Positions 25,924-40,248 of a stretch of DNA of 49,395 nt are shown one piece after another. A program made the translations under genes and the position numbers. The stretch covers positions 1-49,395 of the forward strand of contig CALVSC010000002.1 of the NCBI GenBank assembly GCA_944358855.1. The letters are read 5' to 3'. This DNA comes from an uncultured Bacilli bacterium. GTDB taxonomy: Bacteria; Bacillota_I; Bacilli_A; RF39; UBA660. How positions within the stretch are numbered: the first letter of the stretch is position 1; each line of letters starts with the position of its first letter. Below the pieces are notes generated by a model, which was not told the DNA's origin, ran no database searches, and was given only the letters and a program-made list of their open reading frames with translations.

Positions 25924-27447
25924 TTACATTTCTTCTTCTCTTGTATATACTTTTACTTTTTCATTGTTTTTCACTAATAATTCTTCTTGTTCTTTTCGTC
26001 TTCTTTTTAATTCTTCTTCTTTTTCCTGTAATTCACTCAACAGTTTTTCTAGATTAGCATATAACTCTTGATATTCTTTAGACCCTTTTATTTCATCACT
26101 AAATTTCTTATCTAAATCTCTCATCATTTCTTCTAGTTTCTTGGCAGATTTACTTACTAGATTTAAAGCATTGTCTATTTGATCTATTCCACTTTCTATT
26201 TGACTACTATAGTCTGTTATAGAAACTGTTTTATATTTTTTCTTTTTTAGTTTAGGGTTTAAGAGATTTTTCATCAATAGTATATAAGCTGCCGTGGCAG
26301 TAGCAACTGCTTTTGCACTACGATTACCTGGTATTAACATTGGTATTGATAGTAAGGCAAGTAGTTTTTTACTTTGTTTATTTAAAAATTCTACTTGATA
26401 AGTAACTTGTTCTGTTACTGTTATAGAATTATTTATCTTTTCTTCCAGGTCTTTTTCTAAGTAGTCCCCTTCATATTGCAGCATTAGTAACTCATTATTA
26501 AAGTTTTCAAAATTATAGTATTCTTCTTGTAGTAGTTGAAATTCTTCTTCGTTCAGTTCTAGTTCTTCTTTTTCTTCTTTTACTTTACCACTTAGTTTTT
26601 GAGTCTTTAGTTTAGCTTCTTCAATAGCACTTGATAGCATTATATATAGTTTTGAATCATTTATTTCCTCTACCTCTTCTTTTCCTTTGAATCTTTCTAT
26701 ATAACTATCTATTAGTGCTGTTATTTCTTGTTCTATATCTTCGTTATCTAGTTGCGTTTTTAGTTTTTGTTTTAGAATTTCTAGATGTTTAATAATTTCT
26801 GTTAATTGACTTAATATTTCTTCTGCTTCTTTTTTGTCTTTTATATTTTGTTCTTTCTTTTCTAAAATCGTGTATTCATATACAATATTTTTTAGTTCTT
26901 GTTTTATTTCTTTTAAGTTATTTTCATATCTTTCTACTATTTTTTGATCTTCTAATTTTTTTATTTTATCTTCATTTATCGTTGGTATAGATATTTGGTT
27001 TTCATTTTCTTCTTTTACTTCAATATGAACAGGTTGAGTAATGGTTACTTCTTTTTGATTCATTTCTTTGTTTTCTATTACATCCGTTTTTTTTCTTTCT
27101 GGGTCTTCTTTTAGAGGGTTTATTATTTCGTCTAGTTCTAGTTTACCAGCTTCATGTAATTCTTCTTTTTGTAAAGCTTTTGCTTCATCTCTTTCTGTTT
27201 CGTACTCTTTTGGTTGACTTATTAGTGTTTCAAATGTATTTCCAATAATGGAAATTGGTACTGCTATAAAAAAGTTTTTTATTGTTTGTTGTTTTACTTC
27301 TTTTTCTAGTTTACGAAGTTTTGCTTGCCTTTTTTTTCTTAAATTTTCTTGTAGTTTTCGTTTTTGCTTTTTTGTAATTCTTATTGTTCGAAGTCGGTCA
27401 TTATGACCTCCTTTTGTACCTATTGTCTCGTTCATATTGTTCACCAT
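25924..27447 (-). CDS. Hypothetical coiled-coil membrane protein (2 TMs) between the PBP gene and mraY
   Basis: A basic N-terminus and a TM, then about 280 aa of K/E-rich coiled coil, a second TM and a further coiled-coil tail. The start may instead be ATG 27435. Confidence 0.55.
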   Translation of the reverse strand: MVNNMNETIGTKGGHNDRLRTIRITKKQKRKLQENLRKKRQAKLRKLEKEVKQQTIKNFFIAVPISIIGNTFETLISQPKEYETERDEAKALQKEELHEAGKLELDEIINPLKEDPERKKTDVIENKEMNQKEVTITQPVHIEVKEENENQISIPTINEDKIKKLEDQKIVERYENNLKEIKQELKNIVYEYTILEKKEQNIKDKKEAEEILSQLTEIIKHLEILKQKLKTQLDNEDIEQEITALIDSYIERFKGKEEVEEINDSKLYIMLSSAIEEAKLKTQKLSGKVKEEKEELELNEEEFQLLQEEYYNFENFNNELLMLQYEGDYLEKDLEEKINNSITVTEQVTYQVEFLNKQSKKLLALLSIPMLIPGNRSAKAVATATAAYILLMKNLLNPKLKKKKYKTVSITDYSSQIESGIDQIDNALNLVSKSAKKLEEMMRDLDKKFSDEIKGSKEYQELYANLEKLLSELQEKEEELKRRRKEQEELLVKNNEKVKVYTREEEM

Positions 27448-27515: not shown

Positions 27516-28190
27516 CTATTCTAGTAATAATCGTATAGTTCCACCTTCTTCTAAGCGTTCCCCACTTGGTGGTGACTGAGATATTACTTTATTTCCAGTT
27601 CCTGTATATTCAATCGTAAAGTCTTTTAATTTTTTCTTTGCTTCTTCTACTGTTTTTCCTACTACGTTTGGTATTTTATGGGTAGGTATATCACTCCATT
27701 CTAAGTCTTTTTCCAGACCATTATCCTGTTTTTCTATTTTTAGGGCATCAATAATATCTAAGAGGATACGTCTTGCGATAGGAGTTGTCGTATAACTTGA
27801 AAGAAGAGCTGTATTTTTAGGATTATCGATTGCTAAATAGAGTACTGCTTTCGGATCATTAGAGGGTACGATGGCCATAAATGACATGATATAGTTTCCA
27901 ACCATATACGTACCATCTTTTACTTTTTGTGCAGTTCCCGTTTTGCCTCCTATACGATATCCCTCGATATAAGCACTTTTTCCTCCTCCTTTTGCGACAA
28001 CACTTTCTAAAGCTTTTTTCATTATTTCAGATGTTTTTTTACTAATTACTTTTCCTACTTTTTCCTTCCTATATTGTTTTATAATAGTACCCGTTTCTTT
28101 TTCCGAAATGTTAGATACTATAAATGGAGTATATAATGTCCCTCCATTAACAACTGCTGAAACTGCCCTTACTTGTTGTAATGTCCTCTT
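27516..28190 (-). pseudogene. 3' segment of a split class B penicillin-binding protein gene (transpeptidase C-terminal part with KTGT, plus one PASTA domain)
   Basis: The stop-to-stop frame reads ...QQVRAVSAVVNGGTLYTPFIV...GGKTGTAQ...PASTA. There is no credible start or SD of its own. It continues exactly where the 38920..40176 segment breaks off. Confidence 0.9.
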
Positions 28191-29814
28191 CTAAATGATA
28201 CTCTTTTCCTAAATTATTACTGGAGGCTGTTACTGTCGTTCCAGTTTTAAAAATAATATTTAATCTTACTTCTTTTTCCTTTTTTTCACTTTTATTAACG
28301 ATTATTTTTTCTACCAAAGAATTAACTATGTTATTTAAGCAAGCTTTATCATCAATAGAATGTTTTAAACCTTCTTCTATATTCTTTATTTCTTTTTTAA
28401 TAAAATATTTATCATACTTAGTCATTTTTAAGTAATTAATTTGTGTTAAATATTTATTTAATTCTATATTTAATTCATCTATTTGTCTTTTATAATCAAT
28501 GTTTTCTAAATAACCATCTAATACGAGTTCTAATAACTTGTTCTTTTTCGTTTTTATAACAATACATTTTTCATCTAATTTTTTTATTTCTTCGATACTG
28601 GTTTTCGATAACAAATAATTTTTACATTCGTTAATTAAACCTTTAAATATTTTTTTGTTATTAGAATAAATTGTAGATATGATGTTTTTAAATAATTTAT
28701 CTAATTCTTGTTCTACCACTCTACTATTTGTACAGCCTTTCAAACTTTCTTTGCGATATATTTGACATTCCCAGACAGGATTGTTTTTTCTTTTACCAGC
28801 ACTATTTCTATGATAAGTAACGTTATGTATACCACAATATATTTTTCCAGAATAAGTATATCGATTATGAAATATTGTTTTATCTTCAATTTTATTTAGA
28901 TAGCTTTTTCTTCTTCTTTGTAACTTGATATTGGCTTTTTCCCATAACTTTTCTGATACTATGGGTGGAACTTTATCATAATCTTTATATAGAGTCCAGT
29001 TTTCTTTCGTTAGTTTCTTTTTTCTTTTTGTTTTATAATCTATAACTTCTGTCTTATGACCACAATAGTATCCCTTATATTTGGGGTTTTCTATTATTCC
29101 TGAAATAATTGTTGTATCTAATCTTTTTCCGGTTTTTGTTTTATAATTTAAGTCATATAAATATTTAGATATTTTAGATAACCCATCATTTGTATTAGCG
29201 TATCGATCGAAAATTATTTTAATCATTTTCGCTTGATTTTTATCAATTATCAGTTTGCCCTTATCTTTTATATAACCATAAATATTAGATGAACCTAAAA
29301 CAACGCCATTATTAATACTTCTTTTCATACCAAAGGATACTCTTTCTGATAGTTTTCTTACTTCATCTTGAGCAATCGAAGACATTATGGTAAGTCGAAG
29401 CTCTGAGTCAGGTAAAATAGTATTTATATTATCATTTAAAAAATATACTCCTACTCCATTTTGTAGTAATTTTTCTGTATATTTGATACTATCTAGTGTA
29501 CTTCTTGAAAATCTTGATATTTCTTTTGTTAATATTAAATCAAATTTATGGTTTTTAGCATCTTCCATCATTTTTAAAAACTCTTCTCTTTTTTTTACTG
29601 TTGTTCCACTGATTCCTTCATCAATATAAGCCCCTTCGAAATGCCAGTGAGGTATTTTGCTTATGTAATCATTAAAAAAAGAAATTTGATGTGATAAGGA
29701 ATGTAATTGTTCTTCTTTCTCGGTTGATACACGAGCGTAAAAACATACTCTTAAATCTAATTCTTGAAGAGACTTTCCTTGTATAATGTGTTTCCTAACT
29801 GTATATAAATCCAT
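28147..29814 (-). CDS. Large serine recombinase (integrase/excisionase of the intervening element)
   Basis: Resolvase catalytic domain (YARVSTEKEEQ, SRFSRS), recombinase domain, Cys-rich zinc ribbon (CGIHNVTYH...WECQ...C) and coiled coil. The last 11 codons run through the att core into host DNA. Confidence 0.9.
   Translation of the reverse strand: MDLYTVRKHIIQGKSLQELDLRVCFYARVSTEKEEQLHSLSHQISFFNDYISKIPHWHFEGAYIDEGISGTTVKKREEFLKMMEDAKNHKFDLILTKEISRFSRSTLDSIKYTEKLLQNGVGVYFLNDNINTILPDSELRLTIMSSIAQDEVRKLSERVSFGMKRSINNGVVLGSSNIYGYIKDKGKLIIDKNQAKMIKIIFDRYANTNDGLSKISKYLYDLNYKTKTGKRLDTTIISGIIENPKYKGYYCGHKTEVIDYKTKRKKKLTKENWTLYKDYDKVPPIVSEKLWEKANIKLQRRRKSYLNKIEDKTIFHNRYTYSGKIYCGIHNVTYHRNSAGKRKNNPVWECQIYRKESLKGCTNSRVVEQELDKLFKNIISTIYSNNKKIFKGLINECKNYLLSKTSIEEIKKLDEKCIVIKTKKNKLLELVLDGYLENIDYKRQIDELNIELNKYLTQINYLKMTKYDKYFIKKEIKNIEEGLKHSIDDKACLNNIVNSLVEKIIVNKSEKKEKEVRLNIIFKTGTTVTASSNNLGKEYHLEEDITTSKGSFSSC
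28171..28180. repeat. att core copy (attL/attR), ACTTGTTGTA
   Basis: Identical 10-mer at 38927-38936 in the same orientation. Confidence 0.85.
28192..28205. repeat. Element-end inverted arm, TAAATGATACTCTT (P' arm of the putative attP)
   Basis: Its reverse complement AAGAGTATCATTTA matches 38906-38919 (AAGGGTATCATTTA) at 13 of 14 positions. Confidence 0.75.
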
Positions 29815-29830
29815 CCTCTATTCTCCTTAC

Positions 29831-29953
29831 TTAAATTATTTTATTCATAACAAAGTTATACATATCTTTCGTTATTATATTATTTTGTTTTAAATATGTA
29901 AGCAAGGTCATTTTTATTTCTTTTTCTATCGATTTATTCATCATATTTTTCAA
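29831..29953 (-). CDS. Small 40-aa ORF immediately upstream of the recombinase gene (possible accessory or directionality factor)
   Basis: TTG start 6 nt after AAAGGAG. The product is (M)KNMMNKSIEKEIKMTLLTYLKQNNIITKDMYNFVMNKII. It lies 16 nt from the recombinase start. No family recognised. Confidence 0.3.
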   Translation of the reverse strand: MKNMMNKSIEKEIKMTLLTYLKQNNIITKDMYNFVMNKII

Positions 29954-30010
29954 ATATCTACTCCTTTCTAATCTCATAAAAATTATATGAAGATATGGAA
30001 AATTTATGGC

Positions 30011-30035
30011 AAAAAAAAACAACAAAATGTTGTTT
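30011..30035 (-). terminator. Intrinsic terminator after ackA
   Basis: AAACAAC-AAAAT-GTTGTTT followed by T9 on the minus strand. Confidence 0.6.
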
Positions 30036-31287
30036 AACTTATTTTTTTTAATTGTGGTGCAGTTTGATTTTGCTTTAATTGTTCACTTATTTCATAAGTA
30101 TCTTTTAAAATCATATACTCTTCGTTTGTTGGCATTACCATAACTCTTATTTTGGAGTCGCTAGTTGATATTTCACCACTATTTTGTTCTTTAAAGCCGG
30201 CAATGGTATCATTTGCTTCTTCATCTAAAGAAATAGACATGACATCTTTTATTTCATTGATGATACCTGCTCTTAAAGACATCGCGTTTTCTCCAATACC
30301 AGCAGTAAATACTATAGCATCTACCTTACCATGTAATTGGAAATAATATTGAGCGATGTATTTAACAATAGAGTCTTTTAACATATCAATTGCAAGTTGG
30401 GCTTTTTCATCTCCCTCATTTGCAAGTTGTTCTACATCTCTAAAATCGTTTTTATTCGCAATACCTAATAATCCACTTTGCTTATTTAAAGCAGAAGTTA
30501 CCTCTTCTACGCTCATATTTCTTTCTTTACAAATATATTCAATAATTGAACTGTCAATGTTACCACTTCTAGTCCCCATAATTAGTCCATCTAATGGAGT
30601 TAATCCCATGGTTGTGTTGTAACATAATCCATCTTTAATGCAAGAAACACTTGCACCTGAACCGATATGACAAATAATTAAATTAACATCATCTTTACCT
30701 AAATACTTTTGCATTTGTTCTGTAATATATTTATGACTTGTTCCATGAAAGCCATATTTTCTAACACCGTTTTCTTCATACCAACTATATGGTACAGCAT
30801 ACATATAATTTTCTTTTGGCATTGTTTGATGAAATGCTGTATCAAAAACAGCAACTTGTGGAACTCCTGGTAATAAAGCTTGCAAACTTTCAATACCAGC
30901 AATTTCACCGGGATGATGCAATGGTCCAAGCTTTGTTAATGACTTAATATTTTCCAATACTTCATCATCGATTAAAACAGAAGTTGAATATATTTCACCA
31001 CCATGTAAAACACGATGACCAACACCTTTAATGTCTGTTATATCGCCTATAAAGTTATTTTCAAGCAATTCATCTAGCATTGTTGCAACTGCTTGAGAAT
31101 GATTAGATATTGCTTTTCTTTTTTCTTGTTTTTCTTCGCCAAACTTTAAAGTATAGAAACTATCATCTTTACCTATTTTTTCCACATAACCATTTACAAT
31201 TACTTTTGCTTCTGGCATTTCATATAATGTGAATTTTAAAGATGAACTTCCTGCATTAACAATTAAAAATTTTTCAGCCTCAGCCAT
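30034..31287 (-). CDS. ackA: Acetate kinase
   Basis: Full-length canonical AckA: VNAGSSSLKF, GHRVLHGG, FDTAFHQTMP, YGFHGTSH, GTRSGNID, TAGIGEN. ATG at 31287 after GGAGGTG. It has its own TTGTCT-17-TAAAAT promoter. Confidence 0.93.
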   Translation of the reverse strand: MAEAEKFLIVNAGSSSLKFTLYEMPEAKVIVNGYVEKIGKDDSFYTLKFGEEKQEKRKAISNHSQAVATMLDELLENNFIGDITDIKGVGHRVLHGGEIYSTSVLIDDEVLENIKSLTKLGPLHHPGEIAGIESLQALLPGVPQVAVFDTAFHQTMPKENYMYAVPYSWYEENGVRKYGFHGTSHKYITEQMQKYLGKDDVNLIICHIGSGASVSCIKDGLCYNTTMGLTPLDGLIMGTRSGNIDSSIIEYICKERNMSVEEVTSALNKQSGLLGIANKNDFRDVEQLANEGDEKAQLAIDMLKDSIVKYIAQYYFQLHGKVDAIVFTAGIGENAMSLRAGIINEIKDVMSISLDEEANDTIAGFKEQNSGEISTSDSKIRVMVMPTNEEYMILKDTYEISEQLKQNQTAPQLKKIS

Positions 31288-31387
31288 AGTTTTCACCTCC
31301 TATAAAAACCTTTTATATTTTACCATTTTTTGAGCAAAAAGACAAATATTACTCACTTTGAACATTGATTTTAACTAGAAAAGCAAC

Positions 31388-33646
31388 CTAATTTTTGGTT
31401 GCTTTTAATAAAGTTTTGGGTCTTGTTTTTGGTTGTTGATGAGTGGTTTGCGGAAGGTCTTCTGCTTGTTCTTCCCATCTTTTATATTCTTCTGTTAATG
31501 CTCTTCTCATTTCTAAATAAGTAGTAGAATTTAATATATTATTATCGTATAAGTCTCTTAGTTGCCCTAAAGTTGAAGTTTTTTCTTCTTGAAGTGTTTT
31601 TCTATCTTTCATTATTACTCTTGGTATTTTTTGATCAGGATGATCAAATCTAAAGCCTGCTGTTGGAGTTATATTTACATTTAATAGTTCTTGGGCTCTT
31701 CTTAGTGTTTCTTTATGTCTTTGTTCCTCGTCTATTTCTTTGCTTATTCCATTGTAAGGTCTTAGTGTCATTCTTTCGTAAGGTTCTGTTATAGATGGTT
31801 TTCTCTCTATTACAGATTTCATTTCATTATATAGCCCTTTACCATTGGTATCTAATAATACAACAGGAGTTGATTCATAGGCCATTGGAAATTCATCTCC
31901 ACAAAAAGTAGAGACTTTAATTTGTCCTTGATCAAAAGAAATAATAAACCTAGTATCTCTTTTCATTAGTTCTAGATACATATCATCCTTTTCTTCTTCT
32001 GAAAGTGATACAAATTGACTTTTAGCATAGTCAAATAAAACTTGATTTTCTAATAATAATCCGGATAGAATTTCCTCCTCGGTAGTGTCTATTGTTTCTA
32101 AATATGCTCTTATAAGGTTTTCTTTTTGATCTTTTGATAAAGTAGTACGTAAATGGTCTTTCATTGGTGTTATTATTTTATGTTCTAGAGTTTTTACTGT
32201 ATTCATACTATAGATTGTTCCTGATAGTTCTCTATTTTGTGGTTCAGCAAATATTATTGCTTTTTTAGGATCAGAGTGTGTAAGTCCTAAATATTTATAA
32301 CTTGGAACATGTTCTCTCGTTCCTAGCTTTATACATGGTGTTAGTATCTCTATATGGTCTTTATATGTTGCGATGTATACAGCCTTACTATTTTCAACAG
32401 GTAATATAAATCTTTCTAATTTAATTAACCCATCTCTATCCTTCACCTTCGCAACTGCATGTATATCTCCTTGTATACATGATACAAAAATACTTTCTAA
32501 CTCTGCTTGCTGTTGTTGGAGTTTGTTTTTGTATGAAGAAAATTTTAAACTATTCATATCTAACTCTATTTTCTCTCCAGCTACCTCTACTATGTACTTT
32601 CCTGTCGAAGGATACTCTGTTACTGTTTTTTCTACATTTGATTTATCATATATCTTTCCATTTCTGTCTATAAAAAATTTATGACCACATAACTCAAATT
32701 CGTAGATTTCATTATCTTTTACTTCTTTTTCTAATTCTAAAGCATCTCTAAATTCTTTTAGTTTTTCTTTTAATTTTTCTATTATATCTTTATTATATAT
32801 ACCTAGTTTTCTAATATAGGATTCGTCTAACTCATTGAAAAACTTATCCATATACTCATCATCTGGTGCTGGTCGTTCTAATAATAATTCTACTATATTT
32901 TTATATTCCCAAAATAATAATTTTCCTATCGTGCTTGTTTTATCAGTTATTAAATCTCGCTGTGCAGCAATATAGTCTTTATCTTTTATTGCCTCAGCAA
33001 ATGGATAAGGGCTATTCCGGGGATTTTCGTGATATCTTTCGGCATCCTTCATAAATTTTTTCCAGAGGCTTGATGGAGAATTACTAAAATCTATTCCTCC
33101 TTTTAAAAACTTACTATAACTTTCTTTATCACCTTTTAATAATCTAGCAAATCTTGCCATACTAGTTTGAGGCTTATAAACTGCACTATTATCTTCTTGC
33201 ATGATTGCTTCTGTTAACATCTGCGTTAGTGCCTCATTCATAAACGCTGTTTTTAGGGCTTCTTTATCTGTTTGCAGATCATAAAAAGCACCTGCCACTA
33301 CCAGAAAATGAATAAATTCATGACATAGTACACCATCTAATGTTTCGGGATCATCTAAAATGCTTTCATTAATGTAAATTCTTCTTTGTAGCATACTAAA
33401 TAAACCGTTGGCTTTCCGTTGGCTTAACTCTTTACTTACAACAATTTTATATTTTCCTGTTCCTTCTTTTAGCAAAAGATCCTGAAGAAACTTTCTATAA
33501 TTTCTTTCCTTGGTATATCCTCTATCATTAAAAAACTTTTGGATTTTTCTCATTACCCTACGAAATGAATCTATTAGTCTTGGATCTATCTCTATCTTAT
33601 CCAGATTACCTTTCGATAATAAATCAACAAAACTTCTATCTTCCAT
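31388..33646 (-). CDS. 752-aa protein with an N-terminal zincin (HExxH) metallopeptidase-like domain, as in polyvalent proteins of mobile elements
   Basis: CHEFIHFLV followed about 30 residues later by MNEALTQMLTE (HExxH plus a downstream Glu). The remaining roughly 600 aa are unrecognised. Confidence 0.55.
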   Translation of the reverse strand: MEDRSFVDLLSKGNLDKIEIDPRLIDSFRRVMRKIQKFFNDRGYTKERNYRKFLQDLLLKEGTGKYKIVVSKELSQRKANGLFSMLQRRIYINESILDDPETLDGVLCHEFIHFLVVAGAFYDLQTDKEALKTAFMNEALTQMLTEAIMQEDNSAVYKPQTSMARFARLLKGDKESYSKFLKGGIDFSNSPSSLWKKFMKDAERYHENPRNSPYPFAEAIKDKDYIAAQRDLITDKTSTIGKLLFWEYKNIVELLLERPAPDDEYMDKFFNELDESYIRKLGIYNKDIIEKLKEKLKEFRDALELEKEVKDNEIYEFELCGHKFFIDRNGKIYDKSNVEKTVTEYPSTGKYIVEVAGEKIELDMNSLKFSSYKNKLQQQQAELESIFVSCIQGDIHAVAKVKDRDGLIKLERFILPVENSKAVYIATYKDHIEILTPCIKLGTREHVPSYKYLGLTHSDPKKAIIFAEPQNRELSGTIYSMNTVKTLEHKIITPMKDHLRTTLSKDQKENLIRAYLETIDTTEEEILSGLLLENQVLFDYAKSQFVSLSEEEKDDMYLELMKRDTRFIISFDQGQIKVSTFCGDEFPMAYESTPVVLLDTNGKGLYNEMKSVIERKPSITEPYERMTLRPYNGISKEIDEEQRHKETLRRAQELLNVNITPTAGFRFDHPDQKIPRVIMKDRKTLQEEKTSTLGQLRDLYDNNILNSTTYLEMRRALTEEYKRWEEQAEDLPQTTHQQPKTRPKTLLKATKN

Positions 33647-33736
33647 TTTATCACTCCCTTATATTGTTTTGTTAATAAAAGATTCGCGCTTATTATACCA
33701 TAAAATGCTACATTTTTCTACTGCATATTTTTTCAT

Positions 33737-33760
33737 AAAAAAAGAGGAGATGTCTCCTCT
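33737..33760 (-). terminator. Intrinsic terminator after the CnaB-repeat gene
   Basis: AGAGGAG-ATGT-CTCCTCT followed by T7 on the minus strand. Confidence 0.6.
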
Positions 33761-34949
33761 ATTCATGATTACATTTTTTAAATTTATATGCTGTTAGACC
33801 AAGCCCTGTAAGAGAAATTATAAATAATGTGGTCATTATTATAATAGAATCACTTGTATTAGGGTTATTCACTTCTACTTTTTGTTGTTCTTGTGGCGTA
33901 TCTACTAAATCTCCAATATATTTTGCATCTACTACAAATCCTTCTTTATTATCTCCAGTAATTGTAAATTCATAGTCTTCTGTATTTTCTAATCGTAAAC
34001 TATATTGACTTGGTGTTTTTTCTTTCTTATTTTTATATAAGTTGGTAATTACTTCTTCCCAGTCGTCTTCTTTTGTTACAGTGATGGTTTGTTCTTGGGT
34101 ATCAAAGTTATATAAACCAAATTCTAATTTATCTGGTCTTTTCTTTGCTTTGTCATTTTCATCGTCCCAGTTTATTGTTACTTTAGAATCATCGATACGA
34201 TATGGTTCATGTGTTATATAAACATCGATATTTCCTTCTTCATCCACAACTATTTTATAATCATAATCAGGATTAGCATAAAGTGATTTATAAACAAATT
34301 GTACTGGTTTATCTAGAAGTGGATTTCCAAATTCGTCTTTATGATAAGCATCTTCTATATATACTTCTTTTTGACAAGTATTTGCATCTATATAAGTATC
34401 TTCTTCATCTGCACAACTTACTCTAATATATTTACCGTCATCTCCATCTAAAGCAATATCTGTATCCCTATAAAAATCTCTGGCATTTCCATCGTCCCAG
34501 TGTTCTGTATATGTGATAGTTTTAAATGGTAATATATAAAAATCTACTGTTAAAGTTCTATTTTCTCTTGTAATATAATCTTTTGTTCCTAAAGGATATG
34601 AATAATGTGGAAATCTAGCATTTTCCGTATAGTATATTTGGGCTCCATCTTCGTGATCCATATATACAATTCTCTCTATAGACCATATTGTTGTTTCATC
34701 ATCTACTCTTCTAACATCTACTTCATCTTTTTTAAATGTATAATTGTATTCTTCTTTTAAATTTACATTATCCATGAATTGTAATGTTATTTCATCTGGT
34801 CTGTAACCTAATTTGTTATCATAGTCGTGCCAAGCAATTTCAAATGTTACAGGTACAAAAGTATCGTCGATTAAAGGTGCGGCAGATACATTTGTTGTTA
34901 AACAAAAAAACGTTCCTACTAATAATAATAAAGATAATATTTTTTTCAT
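33759..34949 (-). CDS. Secreted surface protein with three CnaB-like repeats and a C-terminal sortase-type sorting signal variant (NPNTSD)
   Basis: Signal peptide MKKILSLLLLVGTFFCLTTNVSA. There are three W(H/D)D..N....RPD-type repeats. The C-terminus is NPNTSD plus a hydrophobic helix plus KFKK. Confidence 0.7.
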   Translation of the reverse strand: MKKILSLLLLVGTFFCLTTNVSAAPLIDDTFVPVTFEIAWHDYDNKLGYRPDEITLQFMDNVNLKEEYNYTFKKDEVDVRRVDDETTIWSIERIVYMDHEDGAQIYYTENARFPHYSYPLGTKDYITRENRTLTVDFYILPFKTITYTEHWDDGNARDFYRDTDIALDGDDGKYIRVSCADEEDTYIDANTCQKEVYIEDAYHKDEFGNPLLDKPVQFVYKSLYANPDYDYKIVVDEEGNIDVYITHEPYRIDDSKVTINWDDENDKAKKRPDKLEFGLYNFDTQEQTITVTKEDDWEEVITNLYKNKKEKTPSQYSLRLENTEDYEFTITGDNKEGFVVDAKYIGDLVDTPQEQQKVEVNNPNTSDSIIIMTTLFIISLTGLGLTAYKFKKCNHE

Positions 34950-35040
34950 ATTTTTCTTCCCAATATTATATATTCTCTTGTTTATAATGTATCATTATAT
35001 TAAATAAATGTAAATATTTTTTATTTTTTTATGATTCTTT

Positions 35041-35226
35041 CTACATAATTTTATACTTGTCTTTATAATCTTTATATTTTATTTTTAGAGCATCTACTGG
35101 TTTTAAGTTTTTAAATGATTTGAATTGCAGTGAGCCTATTGGTTCATTTACAAAACTACCATCATTTACAAAAATATAAATGTAACCTTCTATATCATCA
35201 TCAACACAAACATTTTCCATTGTCAT
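35041..35226 (-). CDS. Hypothetical 61-aa ORF
   Basis: ORF only, with no good SD. A 23-codon ORF with a strong SD overlaps its 5' end in another frame. Confidence 0.25.
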   Translation of the reverse strand: MTMENVCVDDDIEGYIYIFVNDGSFVNEPIGSLQFKSFKNLKPVDALKIKYKDYKDKYKIM

Positions 35227-35329
35227 TATTGGATATTTCTCTTGCTGTTCTATAACAAAATTCCATTTTACACCTTCCTATTTTTTTTATTTCATTTGCA
35301 TTTTCTAGTTCATAACTTTAATTAATCTA

Positions 35330-36181
35330 CTAAACTACAGCTGGAATTAAAATTTCATTAATTATTTTAATAGCATTTATGGTATCAACAAATTCTATAT
35401 CTTTTGCATATTCATAAGTTTTTTGATAACTATTCCATAAAGTTTTTAATCTTGAATCATCACTAATTAATCCTATATATTTATTAGCATTTTCAATATA
35501 ATCTAATGTTTCGCGTGATGCAGATGTATTAAAAATTGCTTTTCTTAAAGTATTCTTATTAATGTCATTCCATTTTAAATTAACAAACATATATAAATCA
35601 TAGTAATCTTTCATTCTAGTGTTATCAATATTTCTACTAATAATAGATTCAAACTTTTCGGCAATAATTGTTTCATAATTATAAGTCATAATATCAATAG
35701 TTTCATTATCAAATAAGGTGCTATATTTAAATTCTACTTCTTTATAAGTGATAATATCTCCAGTAGTAATATCTATCATTAAATTAGTTTTTAAGCCATC
35801 AAACGCTGCTTTTAAATTCACTTCAAAGCCTGAATATAATTCTTCTTTTCTGATATCTTTAATATTTTCTATTTCAAGTTTGACATTATCATCTAAATCG
35901 ATACGAATAATTTCATTAATAACTTTAGTAATAGTTTCTCTATCTAGTGGCAATCCTTTTATTGTAGTATCTAAATCCATTGTGCTTCTTAAATTAACAC
36001 CAAAGATAGATGACAATAAAAGTCCACCTTTAATGATAAACTTATCTTTATATTTAGATTTTGATATTCTTCTTAATAAAGCTTCAAACATAAAGTTTTG
36101 AATTATATATTTATTAGGTATGTTAGTTTTCTTTGATAAGTTAGATACTTTTGTTTTTAGACTATCTCTATTTTTGATCAT
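35330..36181 (-). CDS. abiEii: AbiEii/AbiGii-family nucleotidyltransferase toxin (type IV TA / abortive infection)
   Basis: FIIKGGLLLSS...RSTMDLDTT...IDITTGD matches the DUF1814/AbiEii signature. There is a 4-nt ATGA overlap with the upstream antitoxin gene. Confidence 0.88.
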   Translation of the reverse strand: MIKNRDSLKTKVSNLSKKTNIPNKYIIQNFMFEALLRRISKSKYKDKFIIKGGLLLSSIFGVNLRSTMDLDTTIKGLPLDRETITKVINEIIRIDLDDNVKLEIENIKDIRKEELYSGFEVNLKAAFDGLKTNLMIDITTGDIITYKEVEFKYSTLFDNETIDIMTYNYETIIAEKFESIISRNIDNTRMKDYYDLYMFVNLKWNDINKNTLRKAIFNTSASRETLDYIENANKYIGLISDDSRLKTLWNSYQKTYEYAKDIEFVDTINAIKIINEILIPAVV

Positions 36182-36765
36182 CCGAGCACCTCGAAAGTAT
36201 CTCTTACTTTATTATAAATATTCATCTTTTTAGCATATTCATATAGTTTTAAAGTGTTTTTATTTTTACTATAAAAGTATTCTCTTATAGCCTTATTAAA
36301 AATTTCAGCATCTATTTTCTTTTTGTTTTTAATAATATCACAAATAGTTTTATCTAAATCATAAACTCTAATAATATTACCAGAATCTAGTTTATAGTTA
36401 GTTACTCCTAATTCTAATAACTCTCTTTTTGTATAAAATAAATTAACTTTCTTTTCTTTTTGAAGTGAACCATTATAACCACTATTAACTGTAATATCAT
36501 ATATAATAGGAATTCTATTAGAAAAACCGTGCAAATATAAAGCAGTTGTATTTGAATAAATAGCATTTTTACTTTTGCTTTGTAAAATAACAAATTCATC
36601 TATTAGATCATTTTTCTTAATATATACTCCTCGACTTACTCTTTCTATTTTATTTTCTTTAATAAGTTTAGTTAAATAAAATCTTGGGATATTATTATAA
36701 TTAACATTTTTAGTAGTTAGATAACCATTTTTAAATAAATTTAAAATTTTATTTTCATATTCCAT
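36178..36765 (-). CDS. abiEi: AbiEi-family antitoxin / transcriptional autoregulator
   Basis: N-terminal wHTH with the ...ERVSRGVYIKKN motif typical of AbiEi_4. It is paired with AbiEii. Confidence 0.85.
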   Translation of the reverse strand: MEYENKILNLFKNGYLTTKNVNYNNIPRFYLTKLIKENKIERVSRGVYIKKNDLIDEFVILQSKSKNAIYSNTTALYLHGFSNRIPIIYDITVNSGYNGSLQKEKKVNLFYTKRELLELGVTNYKLDSGNIIRVYDLDKTICDIIKNKKKIDAEIFNKAIREYFYSKNKNTLKLYEYAKKMNIYNKVRDTFEVLG

Positions 36766-36783
36766 ATTATTACTTTCCTTTCA

Positions 36784-36819
36784 CGATTAAATTATATCAT
36801 ATTTAATCGCATTTGAAAA
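36784..36819 (-). promoter_or_regulatory. abiE promoter with an embedded inverted-repeat operator
   Basis: Minus strand: TTTTCA (36814-36819), a 17-nt spacer, then the extended -10 TGATATAAT. The 9-bp inverted repeat CGATTAAAT-N8-ATTTAATCG (36784-36809) brackets the -10. Confidence 0.5.
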
Positions 36820-36934
36820 CAATGTTATTATAATTTTTTTATATAAAAAATATCTATATCATCTAATAATAACAAATTAGCATTATAAAAATACTGACAC
36901 ATAAATTGTAATTTATCAATCAAAGTAGTTTTGC

Positions 36935-37900
36935 TTAATACAAAGTGAGTTTATCAATAAAATAACATTTCCCAGTTTCCAAAAAATGTTCCATCGCAAT
37001 AAATGATTTCCCAACTTGATTTAATGTTAATTTTAATCTATAAAAATCAACTTCTCCGGCCCCATTCTTATATGGATAGATTTTAGGTAATGTATCACTA
37101 TATTTCAAAAGTTCTTCACCTTTTTTACCAAGCATAAGTGCTAAGTCTCTATCAGTAAATTCTTGTTTACAACGACAGTCTTCCTCCATATTTTCTTCAT
37201 AGAACTCTTTGTCAATTTCTACATCTGCCCAAGGAAAAAGTTCACGGATTACATGTTCATATTTCTTAATTCCAAATCCAAACATTTCTCTTTGAAATAA
37301 TATTTTTTCTTCTCCTTCTTCTTTTACTTTAAGTATAAATGTTCCTCGCCCAGAAGACTTATTTATCCACTCTTGAACTTCTAAAATACTTTCATCGTGT
37401 TTTAAAGTTTCCAACATCCAATCTTTTGCTATTACTAATGAATTCCATCTTCTTTCATAATCACTTTGTTTATTAGCTAAATCTCGAATTTTTTCACATG
37501 AGTTTTCTAGCGTTTGATTATAAGGAATATTAATTTTCCAACCATTTTTACACTTTATTGCTGTTTGTTTATTAATTACTTCCCATATATACCTATCACT
37601 TGATGGAGAATATAGAACAATAATAACTGAAAGTGAATGATTTATCCAATAATTATAATGTTTGATATCTCCACGAAACACCACATTGTTTCCTTTTTTT
37701 TTACTAAAATACGAATCGCCTGATTTTATTTGAACCGCTATTAATTTTCCAGAAAGATAATTATTGTCTTTTGTTTCTATTATAGCATCTATACCATAAT
37801 CACCTATCGGTTGTTCTCGAAACATAAATCCTAATTCTTCAAATTTTGATGCACATTTATAAACACCTTGTCTTTCAATATTTTCAGTATTATTCATCAT
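36935..37900 (-). CDS. DUF4365-domain protein (predicted PD-(D/E)xK restriction-endonuclease-fold N-domain plus an unknown C-domain)
   Basis: GDYGIDAIIE...GKLIAVQIKSG matches the DUF4365 D..(D/E)xK core. The roughly 200-aa C-terminal region is unrecognised. Confidence 0.75.
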   Translation of the reverse strand: MMNNTENIERQGVYKCASKFEELGFMFREQPIGDYGIDAIIETKDNNYLSGKLIAVQIKSGDSYFSKKKGNNVVFRGDIKHYNYWINHSLSVIIVLYSPSSDRYIWEVINKQTAIKCKNGWKINIPYNQTLENSCEKIRDLANKQSDYERRWNSLVIAKDWMLETLKHDESILEVQEWINKSSGRGTFILKVKEEGEEKILFQREMFGFGIKKYEHVIRELFPWADVEIDKEFYEENMEEDCRCKQEFTDRDLALMLGKKGEELLKYSDTLPKIYPYKNGAGEVDFYRLKLTLNQVGKSFIAMEHFLETGKCYFIDKLTLY

Positions 37901-37963
37901 TTTCTATATTCACCATCCAATCGTATAATTCACAATTTACACTATATAATAATCTTAATAATT

Positions 37964-38581
37964 CTATCTCATATTTTCATCGACATTATAATCATATTTT
38001 GATTTTATTAGTTGTTGAGCGTATCTATCTAAAAATCCACAAAAAGTGCTAAGAAATCCGGAATTAACTATATTTTCTTCGTTAACCCTTTCATATATAT
38101 ATCTCCAATCCTTAAAAACATTAGATATATTAGAAATTTCTTTTTCAATAAATTGTTTATTTGCTTGCTCACCATATTTTTTATAAAAAAATGAAAAAAG
38201 AACTGTTTTTAAATAATCATCTGTATTTTTATACAATTTAAACAAATTATGTAATTCATAATTTTTTAAAGTATTAAAATTAAAATCAATATCTACTAAT
38301 AATAACTTTAAATAGACTTCACAGGCAAATGATTTATTTACAATAAAGGGATATATTCTTGAAATCATTTTATCTCCACGAAATGAGACTTTTGTTCCAC
38401 CCCATTCAATTACAGTATTATCCTTAATATTATTTTGTTGTGCCGGTAAAATTATCATTTCTTCTTCCAATATAGCATTTTTAAATTGCCTTGCTGTTAT
38501 GTACATTTCTACTAATTTTTTCCCTTTAGGATCAAGTTTTTTATATGGGTCATCAATTTTATCTTTGTTATCAGAGTTCAT
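37964..38581 (-). CDS. Hypothetical 205-aa all-alpha protein, possibly HEPN-like, upstream partner of the DUF4365 gene
   Basis: ATG 38581 after a GAGG SD, with a TATAAT upstream. The weak HEPN-like pattern is ELHNLFKL ... FKDWRYIYE. No family confidently recognised. Confidence 0.5.
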   Translation of the reverse strand: MNSDNKDKIDDPYKKLDPKGKKLVEMYITARQFKNAILEEEMIILPAQQNNIKDNTVIEWGGTKVSFRGDKMISRIYPFIVNKSFACEVYLKLLLVDIDFNFNTLKNYELHNLFKLYKNTDDYLKTVLFSFFYKKYGEQANKQFIEKEISNISNVFKDWRYIYERVNEENIVNSGFLSTFCGFLDRYAQQLIKSKYDYNVDENMR

Positions 38582-38905
38582 ACTATTCCTCGCTTTCAAA
38601 TTTCATTTTGTTTCTTTAAACATATTATACTATAAAAAAACTATTCTCGAATATAATGTTGTTTTTGCACGCATTTTTTGGATGAGGGCGGCAGTGAAGT
38701 ATCTGATGTTGTTGCTAAAAACTTTTGAATACATACTGCAAAACTTCCGTTTTTTGATTAGCTTTTGCAGTCAACAAACAAAAAAGATTAAATCATTATA
38801 GACTTAATCGTAATCTGAATACTAAACAATATTAATATAACACCTATATTCATACTCAACATCATATTTTTTGATATATTTATTATTTAATCCTCTTGTT
38901 ATGGT

Positions 38906-38919
38906 AAGGGTATCATTTA
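38906..38919. repeat. Element-end inverted arm, AAGGGTATCATTTA (P arm of the putative attP)
   Basis: Matches the reverse complement of 28192-28205 at 13 of 14 positions. Confidence 0.75.
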
Positions 38920-40176
38920 TTAGACAACTTGTTGTATAGGAGTTACACTTACTCCTTGACCGAAAGCAGTTGTTGCAAGTTCTACATTTCCAACTTGGTC
39001 TAGGTTAAAAATGATTCCTTGTCCCTCACCATTTAAATCAATTCCTGTTTTTGCTCCAAAACCAAATTTATCAATATATTCAAAAAGTTTATCTTTTCCG
39101 AGTAGTTGGCCCATCTTTACGAATCCTGGATTACAAGAGTTTTGTAAGACTTGTAAAAAGGTTTGTTCTCCGTGTCCCCCTGCTTTCCAACATCTTAAAA
39201 TAGAACCGTCTACATTGACACTTCCAGAATCATAAAAGTGATCTTTTTTTAAATCTACTACCCCCTCTTCTACCGCTGCGCTGGTAGTAATTATTTTAAA
39301 TGTAGATCCTGGTTCGTAAGAAGACCAAATTGGTAAGTTTCTACTGAGTATTTCGGTGTTATAGTTTTGATAATTGTTAGGGTCATAATCTGGTCTTGAT
39401 GACATTCCTAGTATTTCTCCTGTATTAGGATCCATAACGATTGCTAGTGCATTATCTGGAGAAAACATATCTACAATGTTATCTAGTTCTCTTTCTAGAG
39501 ACTTTTGGATATTGATATCAATCGTCAACGTAATATTCATTCCATCTTGAGGAGCTTCATAAATATCCGTTAAATTCAATTTATTTCCTTTTGCATCAGA
39601 AAAATACTTTATAGCCCCACTTTTTCCAGTTAAATATTTATCATATTGTAATTCTATTCCTGATAGTCCTTGATTATCTATTCCAACATAACCTAGGACA
39701 TGTGATAATAATTCTTTGTATGGATAATATCTTTTTGACTCTTTCATCAAATAGACTCCTTCTAAATTTAACTTGGCTATTTTATCTGATATTTCATATG
39801 ATAGTCTTCTACCTTCTGGATGCACTCTTTCAATCGAAGTCTCCTTATAAACGTGTTCTTTCATATCTTCATAACTAACATTTAATATATCTGCTAGTAG
39901 ACGTGTCGTTTTCTTTTTGTTTTTTATTTGATTAGGTATTAATACGAGAGAGGTCGTTGTGAGGTTATCTGCTAAAACAACACCATTTCTATCTAATATT
40001 AGTCCTCTATTTGCTTCTACTGGTAAATCTCTACTCCATAAGTTTTTGGCATATTTATTTAATTTATTATAGTCTATCATTTGAACGTAGAAAACGCGTA
40101 ATATAATTAATAATAATAGGAATAATAAAACTAAAAATATTATTTTTATTCTTTTATCTATTTTTCGTAAAAACAT
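38920..40176 (-). pseudogene. 5' segment of the split class B penicillin-binding protein gene (membrane anchor, PBP dimerisation domain, SxxK and SxN motifs)
   Basis: TM anchor IIFLVLLFLLLLIIL, active-site GSTFK and the SCN motif. It ends ...FGQGVSVTPIQQVV*, two codons past the att core. Start at ATG 40176 (SD GAGGTG). Confidence 0.9.
38927..38936. repeat. att core copy, ACTTGTTGTA
   Basis: Identical to 28171-28180. Confidence 0.85.
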
Positions 40177-40248
40177 ATTTTCACCTCTACTATTTTTTAT
40201 GTTTTTACCAATAAAAAAATGTAGACAATTCATGCCTACATTTTCTTT

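What the first reader, a model, noticed from the sequence alone, without database searches (positions are those of the whole stretch)
28147..28190. The recombinase ORF reads through the att core, so integration swaps its C-terminal tail
The last 11 codons of the serine recombinase (ITTSKGSFSSC*) span the att core and host (PBP) DNA. The integrated form therefore ends ...HLEEDITTS-KGSFSSC. Translating the predicted circular junction by hand gives ...HLEEDITTS-CLINDTLTITRGLNNKYIKKYDVEYEYRCYINIV*. That tail is 27 residues longer and is encoded by the otherwise non-coding right end (about 38824-38926). The physical state of the element therefore changes the recombinase protein. This is analogous in principle to integration-dependent immunity in mycobacteriophages such as BPs and Brujita, where attP lies inside the repressor gene. 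The tail swap could bias directionality or stability. It would also explain why about 100 bp of the right end has no other annotated function.
Basis: seen in the sequence. Interest (0 to 1): 0.62.

Follow-up and report, generated by a model that had tools for sequence, protein, structure and literature searches.

The report
Recombinase gene split by its own attachment site
A 10.7-kb mobile island sits inside a cell-wall enzyme gene, and its recombination site lies within the end of its own recombinase gene, so the free and inserted forms encode enzymes with different tails; the free-form tail is conserved like real protein, which has one described precedent among serine integrases.

Summary
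The 555-aa large serine recombinase (LSR, 28147-29814, minus strand) reads through the junction with the host penicillin-binding-protein (PBP) gene. Its last 7 residues (KGSFSSC) are PBP DNA read in another frame.

The arrangement is family-wide in uncultured gut Bacilli. Of 120 database homologues, 117 end in arbitrary host-derived stretches of 5-24 aa and 3 carry the element-encoded tail.

The tail behaves as coding sequence:
- Variation peaks at third codon positions (permutation p=0.0016).
- pN/pS is 0.50 in frame, against 1.8-2.9 out of frame.
- Conservation stops at the tail's stop codon.
- The tail is intact in 13/15 elements of 5 kb or more, but in only 1/14 smaller ones.

Family comparison puts the crossover at a CA dinucleotide centred in a 40-bp palindromic attP. 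The 10-bp "core" is partly coincidental identity.

What the tail does is untested. AlphaFold gave no confident structure, and no excised circles were detected.

A direct precedent exists. In Bacillus phage Goe14, attP lies in the serine integrase gene's C-terminal coding region, and integration truncates the gene.

I rate this a new member of a known kind, of moderate interest.

The parts
28147..29814 (-). Large serine recombinase ORF as it stands in the integrated element (555 aa). Catalytic Ser30 lies in the YARVST motif.
   Evidence: Pfam hits: Resolvase 2.6e-29, Recombinase 2.6e-17, Zn_ribbon_recom 2.5e-5.
28147..28170 (-). Host-encoded end of the integrated-form recombinase: KGSFSSC plus stop. 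This is PBP DNA read in a different frame from the PBP.
   Evidence: Homologues carry equivalent but unrelated ends of 5-24 aa.
28171..28180 (.). Left copy of the 10-bp identity ACTTGTTGTA (attL-type junction). It codes part of ITTS.
38927..38936 (.). Right copy of the 10-bp identity (attR-type junction).
28177..28178 (-). Inferred crossover dinucleotide (CA on the minus strand). The right-hand counterpart is 38933-38934.
   Evidence: It is the centre of symmetry of the family attP (12-nt arm, 7 nt, CA, 7 nt, 12-nt arm). Relatives share only TACA between attP and attB. Inferred, not shown biochemically.
28186..28197 (-). attP arm inside the recombinase coding sequence: CATTTAGAAGAG, family consensus CATTTATTAGAC. 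It encodes HLEE (HLLD in relatives).
   Evidence: Inverted repeat I25; family junctions.
38914..38925 (-). Second attP arm, GTCTAATAAATG, a perfect inverse of the consensus first arm. It covers the end of the Cys codon and the Leu-Ile-Asn codons of the tail's CLIN, and contains the TAA that ends the truncated PBP N-part.
38822..38926 (-). Tail-coding segment: 34 codons (CLINDTLTITRGLNNKYIKKYDVEYEYRCYINIV) plus a TAG stop. It is in frame with the recombinase only when the element ends are joined, either as a circle or behind another element in a tandem array.
   Evidence: Codon periodicity p=0.0016 and pN/pS 0.50. Conservation ends at the stop.
38920..40233 (-). N-terminal part of the interrupted class B PBP gene, with the SxxK motif (STFK). 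It ends ...TPIQQVV*.
27516..28176 (-). C-terminal part of the PBP gene, with the KTG motif and a PASTA domain.
29831..29944 (-). Small ORF immediately upstream of the recombinase (MMNKSIEKEIKMTLLTYLKQNNIITKDMYNFVMNKII). It resembles the ORFs at the same position in L011 and L019. Candidate directionality factor or regulator, untested.
   Evidence: No Pfam, PHROGs or PADLOC hit.
30034..38599 (-). Cargo, all on the same strand as the recombinase: acetate kinase, a 752-aa SprT-like protein, a Cna_B protein, AbiEii/AbiEi, a DUF4365 nuclease-like protein and a 211-aa unknown protein.

Best explanation
This is a 10.7-kb non-phage integrative island (about 28179-38934). A large serine recombinase (LSR) inserted it into a class B PBP gene of an uncultured, reduced-genome gut member of the Bacilli. 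The island's attP is a 40-bp site with two 12-nt inverted arms around a central CA. It lies entirely inside the 3' end of the recombinase gene.

Shown:
- The gene exists in two versions. With the element ends joined it encodes a ~580-aa enzyme (582 aa here). Its last ~30 residues come from the far end of the element (consensus CLINDTxTITRGxxSKYTKKYDVEYEYxCxIxI).
- After integration, that tail is replaced by a few arbitrary residues of frame-shifted PBP sequence (555 aa here).
- The element-encoded tail evolves under purifying selection in the recombinase frame.

Inferred:
- The long form is the native enzyme. It is the only form a newly arrived element can make, so it must carry out integration.
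- The short chimeric form is all that a single integrated copy can make, so it must carry out any excision, probably with a partner protein.
- The tail therefore most likely serves the free or integrating stage, for example through protein stability, attP binding or synapsis. It is dispensable once the element is integrated. That would explain why it decays in small elements that appear long resident, while their recombinase ORFs stay intact.
- Whether the swap also sets directionality is open.
For: Structure of the locus.

Family-wide read-through:
- Nearly all of 80 genome loci have the LSR directly abutting the PBP C-part.
- 117/120 database homologues have host-derived ends of 5-24 aa, and 3/120 have element-derived tails.

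Tail is coding:
- 14 unique full-length tails all stop at codon 37-38.
- Column entropy for codon positions 1/2/3 is 0.32/0.46/0.74, permutation p=0.0016.
- pN/pS is 0.50 in frame, against 2.9 and 1.8 in the other frames.
- pN of the tail (0.19) is lower than that of the adjacent recombinase body (0.29-0.35).
- Pairwise identity is 0.70-0.86 across the tail and falls to 0.3-0.45 right after its stop codon.
- Further tails in public proteins show the same motif.

Tail integrity tracks element size: 13/15 intact in elements of 5 kb or more, against 1/14 in smaller ones (Fisher p=2e-5).

The insertion is not fixed: intact 634-aa PBPs occur in relatives.

Precedent for a serine integrase truncated by its own integration: phage Goe14.
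Against: - No excised circle or empty site was seen for this element. Only assembled contigs were available, and they showed no junction variants.
- A search for the attP junction pattern in JGI metagenome contigs found nothing.
- The long-tail ORFs I could place are in tandem arrays (L061, L063, L088).
- About half of the junctions have a truncated or frameshifted tail, so the tail is not universally maintained.
- pN/pS of 0.5 indicates only moderate constraint.
- AlphaFold2 gave a poor model (mean pLDDT 54) with the tail below 50, so there is no structural support for a docking role.
- No functional assay exists.
Confidence: 0.7

Rival explanations
1. The tail is dispensable read-through. 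The ORF happens to stay open past the crossover, and the ~100 bp are conserved for a DNA-level reason, such as an extended attP, an accessory protein-binding site, or a promoter or terminator for the cargo operon.
For: - The first ~25 nt of the tail are an attP arm, conserved as DNA.
- The tail is decayed in about half of the junctions while the recombinases remain intact.
- Host-derived ends in the integrated state are arbitrary.
- AlphaFold finds no structure.
Against: - Variation is concentrated at third codon positions (p=0.0016).
- pN/pS is below 1 only in the recombinase frame.
- Conservation extends ~80 nt beyond a normal 40-50-bp LSR att site and ends exactly at the stop codon.
- No promoter or terminator signal above background was found.
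Confidence: 0.15
2. The tail swap is itself the directionality switch, as speculated for Goe14. The long form only integrates. The truncated or chimeric form can excise without a separate directionality factor.
For: - The state-dependent isoforms are real.
- No recognisable directionality factor is annotated in the element.
- Authors proposed this idea for Goe14, which lacks a sprB equivalent.
Against: - A small ORF at the same position directly upstream of the recombinase in the window, L011 and L019 could be a directionality factor.
- Characterised large serine integrases need such a factor. For example, GirC needs GirX.
- Elements with decayed tails would lose the switch yet persist.
- In tandem arrays the upstream copy makes the long form while integrated.
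Confidence: 0.12
3. This is a skin- or gin-like developmental intervening element in a spoVD-type sporulation PBP. Excision occurs only in a terminal mother cell, so the circular form is a dead end and the tail is an evolutionary relic.
For: - A serine recombinase element interrupts a PBP with a PASTA domain lying near an FtsW/SpoVE-family gene.
- Small non-phage intervening elements are known (gin).
Against: - The hosts are reduced-genome (1.3-1.5 Mb) gut lineages filed under Mycoplasmatota or Bacilli incertae sedis. My own background knowledge is that these lineages are not known to sporulate.
- No sporulation gene was recognised in the ORFs of the window that I scanned.
- A dead-end circle would not maintain purifying selection on the tail.
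Confidence: 0.05

Closest known systems
Bacillus phage vB_BsuS-Goe14 (SPbeta-like) integrase (bioRxiv 10.1101/2021.11.22.469490)
   Same: - It is a large serine integrase whose attP lies in its own C-terminal coding region.
- Integration into a host gene (spoVK) changes the protein's C-terminus.
- The authors already speculated that the long form integrates and the truncated form excises.
   Different: - Goe14 is a ~130-kb-class temperate phage and loses 131 aa. Here a 10.7-kb non-phage island swaps ~30 aa for 5-24 host-encoded residues.
- No detectable close sequence relation: the best phage hits to this recombinase are 39% identity or less, and the tail has no significant phage match.
- Here there is comparative evidence for selection on the lost part across many elements.
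SSV1-type 'suicidal' archaeal tyrosine integrases (PMC8371274)
   Same: The recombination site lies inside the integrase gene, so integration splits the gene.
   Different: - They are tyrosine recombinases of archaeal viruses and plasmids.
- The gene is split into two large non-functional parts. Here only the last ~6% is exchanged and the integrated ORF stays intact.
Integration-dependent immunity of mycobacteriophages BPs/Brujita and M. abscessus prophages (Broussard et al. 2013, as described in PMC8092301)
   Same: attP lies inside a coding sequence, so viral and prophage gene products differ at the C-terminus. Integration acts as a protein-level switch.
   Different: - The split gene is the repressor, not the recombinase.
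- The integrase is a tyrosine type.
- The removed part is an ssrA-like degradation tag. No such tag is evident here: the tails end in I, V or F, not AA.
gin element of Bacillus cereus (GirC/GirX) and other serine-recombinase intervening elements such as skin and SPbeta (PMC5595907)
   Same: A small, non-phage element carrying a large serine recombinase is inserted precisely within a host coding sequence. It has short identity at the junctions and a small directionality factor.
   Different: - Those elements interrupt sporulation genes and excise during sporulation.
- The passages I read of the gin paper do not describe the recombinase ORF spanning attP.
- Here the hosts are reduced-genome gut lineages with no evidence of sporulation.

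Membership tests
Large serine recombinase (serine integrase) | N-terminal resolvase-type catalytic domain with a serine nucleophile | tested here: met
   PF00239 at 2.6e-29 over residues 25-171. YARVST motif with Ser30. The N-terminal domain matches solved serine recombinases (3g13 at 1e-40, TP901-1 integrase).
Large serine recombinase (serine integrase) | Recombinase domain plus zinc-ribbon domain with an inserted coiled coil | tested here: met
   PF07508 at 2.6e-17. PF13408 scores 25.0 bits, just under its 25.3 cut-off. Long helices at 368-500 in the AF2 model of homologue P0003 (low confidence).
Large serine recombinase (serine integrase) | Short (~40-50 bp) att sites with imperfect inverted arms around a central dinucleotide, and a precise insertion | tested here: met
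   12-nt arms, 7 nt, CA, 7 nt, 12-nt arms. An empty attB in relative L090 fits exactly.
Large serine recombinase (serine integrase) | Excision requires a separate recombination directionality factor | not testable with these tools
   There is only a candidate small ORF upstream of the recombinase, with no family hit.
Self-truncating serine integrase (Goe14 type) | [quoted passage not shown] | tested here: met
Self-truncating serine integrase (Goe14 type) | Sequence homology to the Goe14 integrase or its C-terminal extension | tested here: not met
   tblastn against 50,697 phage records: best identity 39% for the whole protein, and only E-value 3 matches for the tail region. The Goe14 record itself was not inspected.
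Integration-dependent immunity (BPs/Brujita) | attP inside the repressor gene, with a tyrosine integrase | tested here: not met
   attP is inside the recombinase gene, and the enzyme is a serine recombinase.
Integration-dependent immunity (BPs/Brujita) | [quoted passage not shown] | tested here: inconclusive
   Tails end ...INIV...INI...IEI or ...TYF, not in an -AA tag. A different degron cannot be excluded.
Sporulation-gene intervening elements (skin, SPbeta, gin) | The interrupted gene is a mother-cell sporulation gene in a spore former | tested here: inconclusive
   The PBP has a PASTA domain and lies near MraY and an FtsW/SpoVE-family gene. The hosts are 1.3-1.5 Mb gut MAGs filed under Mycoplasmatota or Bacilli incertae sedis. 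Whole genomes were not examined.
Sporulation-gene intervening elements (skin, SPbeta, gin) | Developmentally timed excision reconstitutes the gene | not testable with these tools
   No read-level data were available. Contigs show only the integrated form.

The most novel reading that the evidence does not exclude
Integration acts as a built-in protein switch in a whole family of serine-recombinase islands. The free element makes an integrase with a selected ~30-residue C-terminal peptide that tunes integration, stability or directionality. Insertion replaces that peptide with host-encoded junk, converting the enzyme into a different functional state without any regulator.
Probability: 0.3. Interest if true: 0.7.

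Novelty: new member of a known kind. Interest (0 to 1): 0.5.

Why it matters
- If the tail changes activity, stability or directionality, it would be a regulator-free way for a mobile element to sense its own physical state. It would be a serine-recombinase counterpart of integration-dependent immunity and of the idea raised for phage Goe14.
- There is also a practical point. Serine integrases mined from integrated copies for genome engineering would, in families like this one, be chimeras ending in host-encoded residues. The enzyme that actually performs integration can only be recovered by reading across the reconstructed attP.
- The family offers a natural experiment, with dozens of elements whose tails are intact or decayed.
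- The same locus raises a separate question. A PBP gene lying next to MraY and FtsW genes is interrupted in many species of reduced-genome gut bacteria.

Tried and rejected
- Excision evidence from reads. A 0.9-kb stretch over the left junction returned only Logan contigs, with no attP or attB variant. This is uninformative, because contigs drop rare forms.
- Exact attP pattern (both arms plus the central CA) in JGI metagenome contigs: 0 hits. That collection probably lacks these gut lineages.
- Free forms in phages. There were only 3 viral-contig relatives, at 29-43% identity, and no phage record with the tail. These are therefore not phage integrases.
- AlphaFold2 of the 581-aa long form with a 53-sequence alignment: mean pLDDT 54, tail below 50. 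No conclusion can be drawn about tail structure.
- PDB sequence search: only the catalytic domain matches.
- Promoter and terminator scans at both junctions: nothing above shuffled background.
- I first read tail-bearing ORFs fused to other host N-termini as insertions into other target genes. One case I inspected, P0135 (L086/L087), is a remnant with no recombinase in the ~10 kb I fetched downstream of it. L088, looked up for P0123, is a decayed tandem array. I dropped that claim.
- I first took P0003 and P0031 as possible circle-derived sequences. P0031's exact junction sits inside a tandem array in a complete MAG chromosome (L061).

Full report
**1. The observation**

The window carries an ORF at 28147-29814 on the minus strand. 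It translates to a 555-aa protein ending ...NNLGKEYHLEEDITTSKGSFSSC*. Pfam finds Resolvase, Recombinase and, just below its cut-off, Zn_ribbon_recom domains, so it is a large serine recombinase (LSR).

On the same strand, a class B penicillin-binding protein (PBP) gene is split in two. The N part (38920-40233) ends ...GQGVSVTPIQQVV*. The C part continues ...RAVSAVVNGGTLY... to a PASTA domain and ends at 27516.

The two junctions share ACTTGTTGTA, at 28171-28180 and 38927-38936. In the recombinase frame the shared bases encode part of ITTS. The following KGSFSSC plus stop (28147-28170) is PBP DNA read in another frame.

Joining the element's ends continues the frame into 38926-38825. This gives CLINDTLTITRGLNNKYIKKYDVEYEYRCYINIV and then a TAG.

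A relative with an intact 634-aa PBP (91% identity) has the expected uninterrupted attB.

**2. What the site really is**

A scan of species-representative genomes found 155 loci encoding relatives, of which 80 were fetched. Almost all are gut metagenome-assembled genomes labelled uncultured Bacilli, Mollicutes or Tenericutes. The complete chromosomes among them measure 1.3-1.5 Mb. The named genera are filed under Mycoplasmatota or Bacilli incertae sedis.

In nearly every locus the recombinase abuts the same position of the PBP C-part. Comparing the two junction types across loci shows that the functional site is not the 10-bp repeat. The family attP is:

CATTTATTAGAC - 7 nt - CA - 7 nt - GTCTAATAAATG

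This has two perfectly inverted 12-nt arms around a central dinucleotide. Most relatives share only TACA between attP and attB.

In the window, the 7 nt to the right of CA happen to match the PBP for six bases (ACAAGT), which creates the longer repeat. The arms lie at 28186-28197 and 38914-38925, and the repeat finder picked them up independently (I25). The crossover at CA (28177-28178 and 38933-38934) is inferred from symmetry, not shown.

The whole attP therefore lies within the coding sequence of the joined-form recombinase. One arm encodes HL(L/E)(D/E). The other encodes most of CLIN.

**3. Is the tail real coding sequence?**

- Database homologues. Of the 120 best, 117 end in host-derived stretches of 5, 9, 15 or up to 24 residues. 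These stretches differ with host codon usage. Three carry element-derived tails: P0003 (581 aa), P0031 (579 aa) and a truncated one, P0077.
- Junctions examined. I located about 38 tail-side junctions in the fetched loci.
- Full-length tails. 14 unique sequences have a full-length tail of 36-37 codons from the crossover, all stopping at the same place. The consensus is T-x-x-CLINDTxTITRGxxSKYTKKYDVEYEYxCxIxI.
- Codon periodicity. Beyond the arm (codons 10-36), column entropy is 0.32, 0.46 and 0.74 for codon positions 1, 2 and 3. A column permutation gives p=0.0016.
- Substitution ratios. Pooled pN/pS is 0.50 in the recombinase frame, against 2.9 and 1.8 in the other two frames. For 11 elements with both parts available, tail pN (0.19) is lower than that of the adjacent recombinase body (0.29-0.35).
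- Conservation boundary. In a MAFFT alignment of 17 right ends, mean pairwise identity is 0.70-0.86 across the tail. It drops to 0.3-0.45 right after the stop codon.
- More tails. A profile search with C-terminus plus tail recovered further tails with the same motif from public assemblies.

These results point to purifying selection on a translated tail. A DNA-only signal does not fit them.

**4. The tail is not always kept**

Roughly half of the junctions have a truncated, frameshifted or replaced tail. The damage sits at different positions, so these are independent events.

Integrity goes with element size. The tail is intact in 13 of 15 elements of 5 kb or more, against 1 of 14 below 5 kb (Fisher p=2e-5). 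The recombinase ORFs of the small elements are nevertheless intact.

The host-derived ends of integrated copies are arbitrary. So the enzyme made from an integrated copy does not need the tail. Whatever the tail does, it does in the unintegrated state.

**5. Where long forms are seen**

The long-tail ORFs in databases are not necessarily from circles. P0031's junction is the internal junction of a tandem array in a complete MAG chromosome (L061). L063, L037, L071 and L088 are also arrays or decayed arrays. In an array, the upstream recombinase reads into the next element's tail, so the long form can be made from integrated DNA as well.

I found no direct evidence of excision for the window's element. 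Only assembled contigs were served, and they showed the integrated form alone. An attP pattern search of JGI contigs found nothing.

The family is not from phages. The best phage or viral-contig relatives are at 29-43% identity, and the tail has no phage match. The cargo is an island-like mix:
- acetate kinase;
- an SprT-like 752-aa protein;
- a Cna_B protein;
- the AbiEi/AbiEii pair;
- a DUF4365 nuclease-like protein.

**6. Mechanism**

Shown: two state-dependent versions of the recombinase gene exist, and the element-encoded tail is under selection.

Inferred:
- A newly arrived element can only make the long form, so the long form is the integrating enzyme.
- A single integrated copy can only make the chimeric short form, so the short form performs any excision. 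It probably works with a partner. A small ORF sits directly upstream of the recombinase in the window, and similar ORFs occupy the same position in L011 and L019.
- The most economical reading is that the tail improves the integrating or free-state enzyme, through stability, attP binding or synapsis. It is lost without penalty in elements that have stopped moving.
- A true directionality switch, as speculated for Goe14, is possible but less likely.

AlphaFold2 gave a poor model, with the tail below pLDDT 50. This is compatible with a flexible peptide, but the alignment was too shallow for the result to count as evidence.

**7. Comparison with known systems**

- Goe14. The direct precedent is the SPbeta-like phage Goe14. 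[quoted passage not shown]
- SSV1-type integrases. Archaeal SSV1-type tyrosine integrases split their own gene on integration.
- Integration-dependent immunity. This places attP in the repressor gene of phages with tyrosine integrases. It is an analogy, not a family membership.
- gin, skin and SPbeta. These share the architecture of a serine recombinase element inside a host gene, with a small directionality factor. They belong to sporulation biology, for which there is no evidence here.

**8. Verdict**

The concept is not new, but this is a new and large family showing it, and it adds comparative evidence that the swapped-out tail is selected. I rate the interest as moderate (0.5) and the novelty as a new member of a known kind.

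Noticed in passing
window 27516-28176 and 38920-40233; loci L003-L082; L090: The same class B PBP gene, which in the window lies beside MraY and FtsW genes, is interrupted at the same codon in dozens of species-level gut MAGs. Relatives carry an intact 634-aa version at 84-91% identity. The split separates the SxxK motif from the KTG motif, so the interrupted gene should be inactive. Two loci show a second, distant PBP paralogue nearby.
   Followed up: partly
L061 5127, L063 279 and 6790, L037 11639, L071 4561 and 6793, L088 7183-16704: There are tandem arrays of two related elements in the PBP site, with an internal attP-type junction. The upstream recombinase then reads into the next element's tail. 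Some upstream copies have decayed to a C-terminal recombinase fragment. How such arrays form is unclear, since it would seem to need attP x attL- or attR-type recombination.
   Followed up: partly
window 29831-29944 (-); L019 2159-2539; L011 1747-2085: A small ORF sits directly upstream of the recombinase in the window, L011 and L019, with a shared motif (...LL.YL.....I/DDGMYNF..NKL...). It has no hit in Pfam, PHROGs or PADLOC. It is a candidate directionality factor or regulator.
   Followed up: partly
window 38600-38821 (-); L002 5840-6010; L011 460-540: The poorly conserved spacer between the tail's stop codon and the first cargo gene holds several TTGCA/TGCAAAA-type short repeats in different elements. 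It looks like an operator or promoter region.
   Followed up: no
window 30034-31296 (-): A full-length acetate kinase gene (Pfam 4e-146) is carried as cargo inside the mobile element. This is an unusual housekeeping-type passenger.
   Followed up: no
window 35330-36765 and 36935-37900 (-): Defence-type cargo is present. There is an AbiEi/AbiEii pair (PADLOC 8e-64 and 3e-90) and a DUF4365 protein resembling the nuclease domain of an Argonaute-associated defence protein (2e-20). Other elements of the family carry AbiE or AAA_14/DUF4143 modules instead.
   Followed up: partly
window 25924-27447 (-): A 507-aa ORF with no Pfam hit lies between the PBP and MraY, where a Mur ligase would be usual; its coding DNA looks low in complexity.
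   Followed up: no
L083 2451-4425: On a viral contig, a recombinase 43% identical to this one overlaps the start of an ORF that resembles a D-Ala-D-Ala carboxypeptidase fragment. Distant relatives may target other cell-wall genes and also read across their junction.
   Followed up: no
L086 2116-2424; L087 1962-2270: The tail sequence is fused in frame to the N-terminal part of a metallophosphoesterase gene, with no recombinase in the ~10 kb fetched downstream. This is apparently a remnant of a rearranged array rather than a new integration target.
   Followed up: partly
L072 11611-11640: One relative has an in-frame stop (…EYHF*DYYT) just before the crossover. This is one of the few integrated recombinases that look inactivated.
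   Followed up: no
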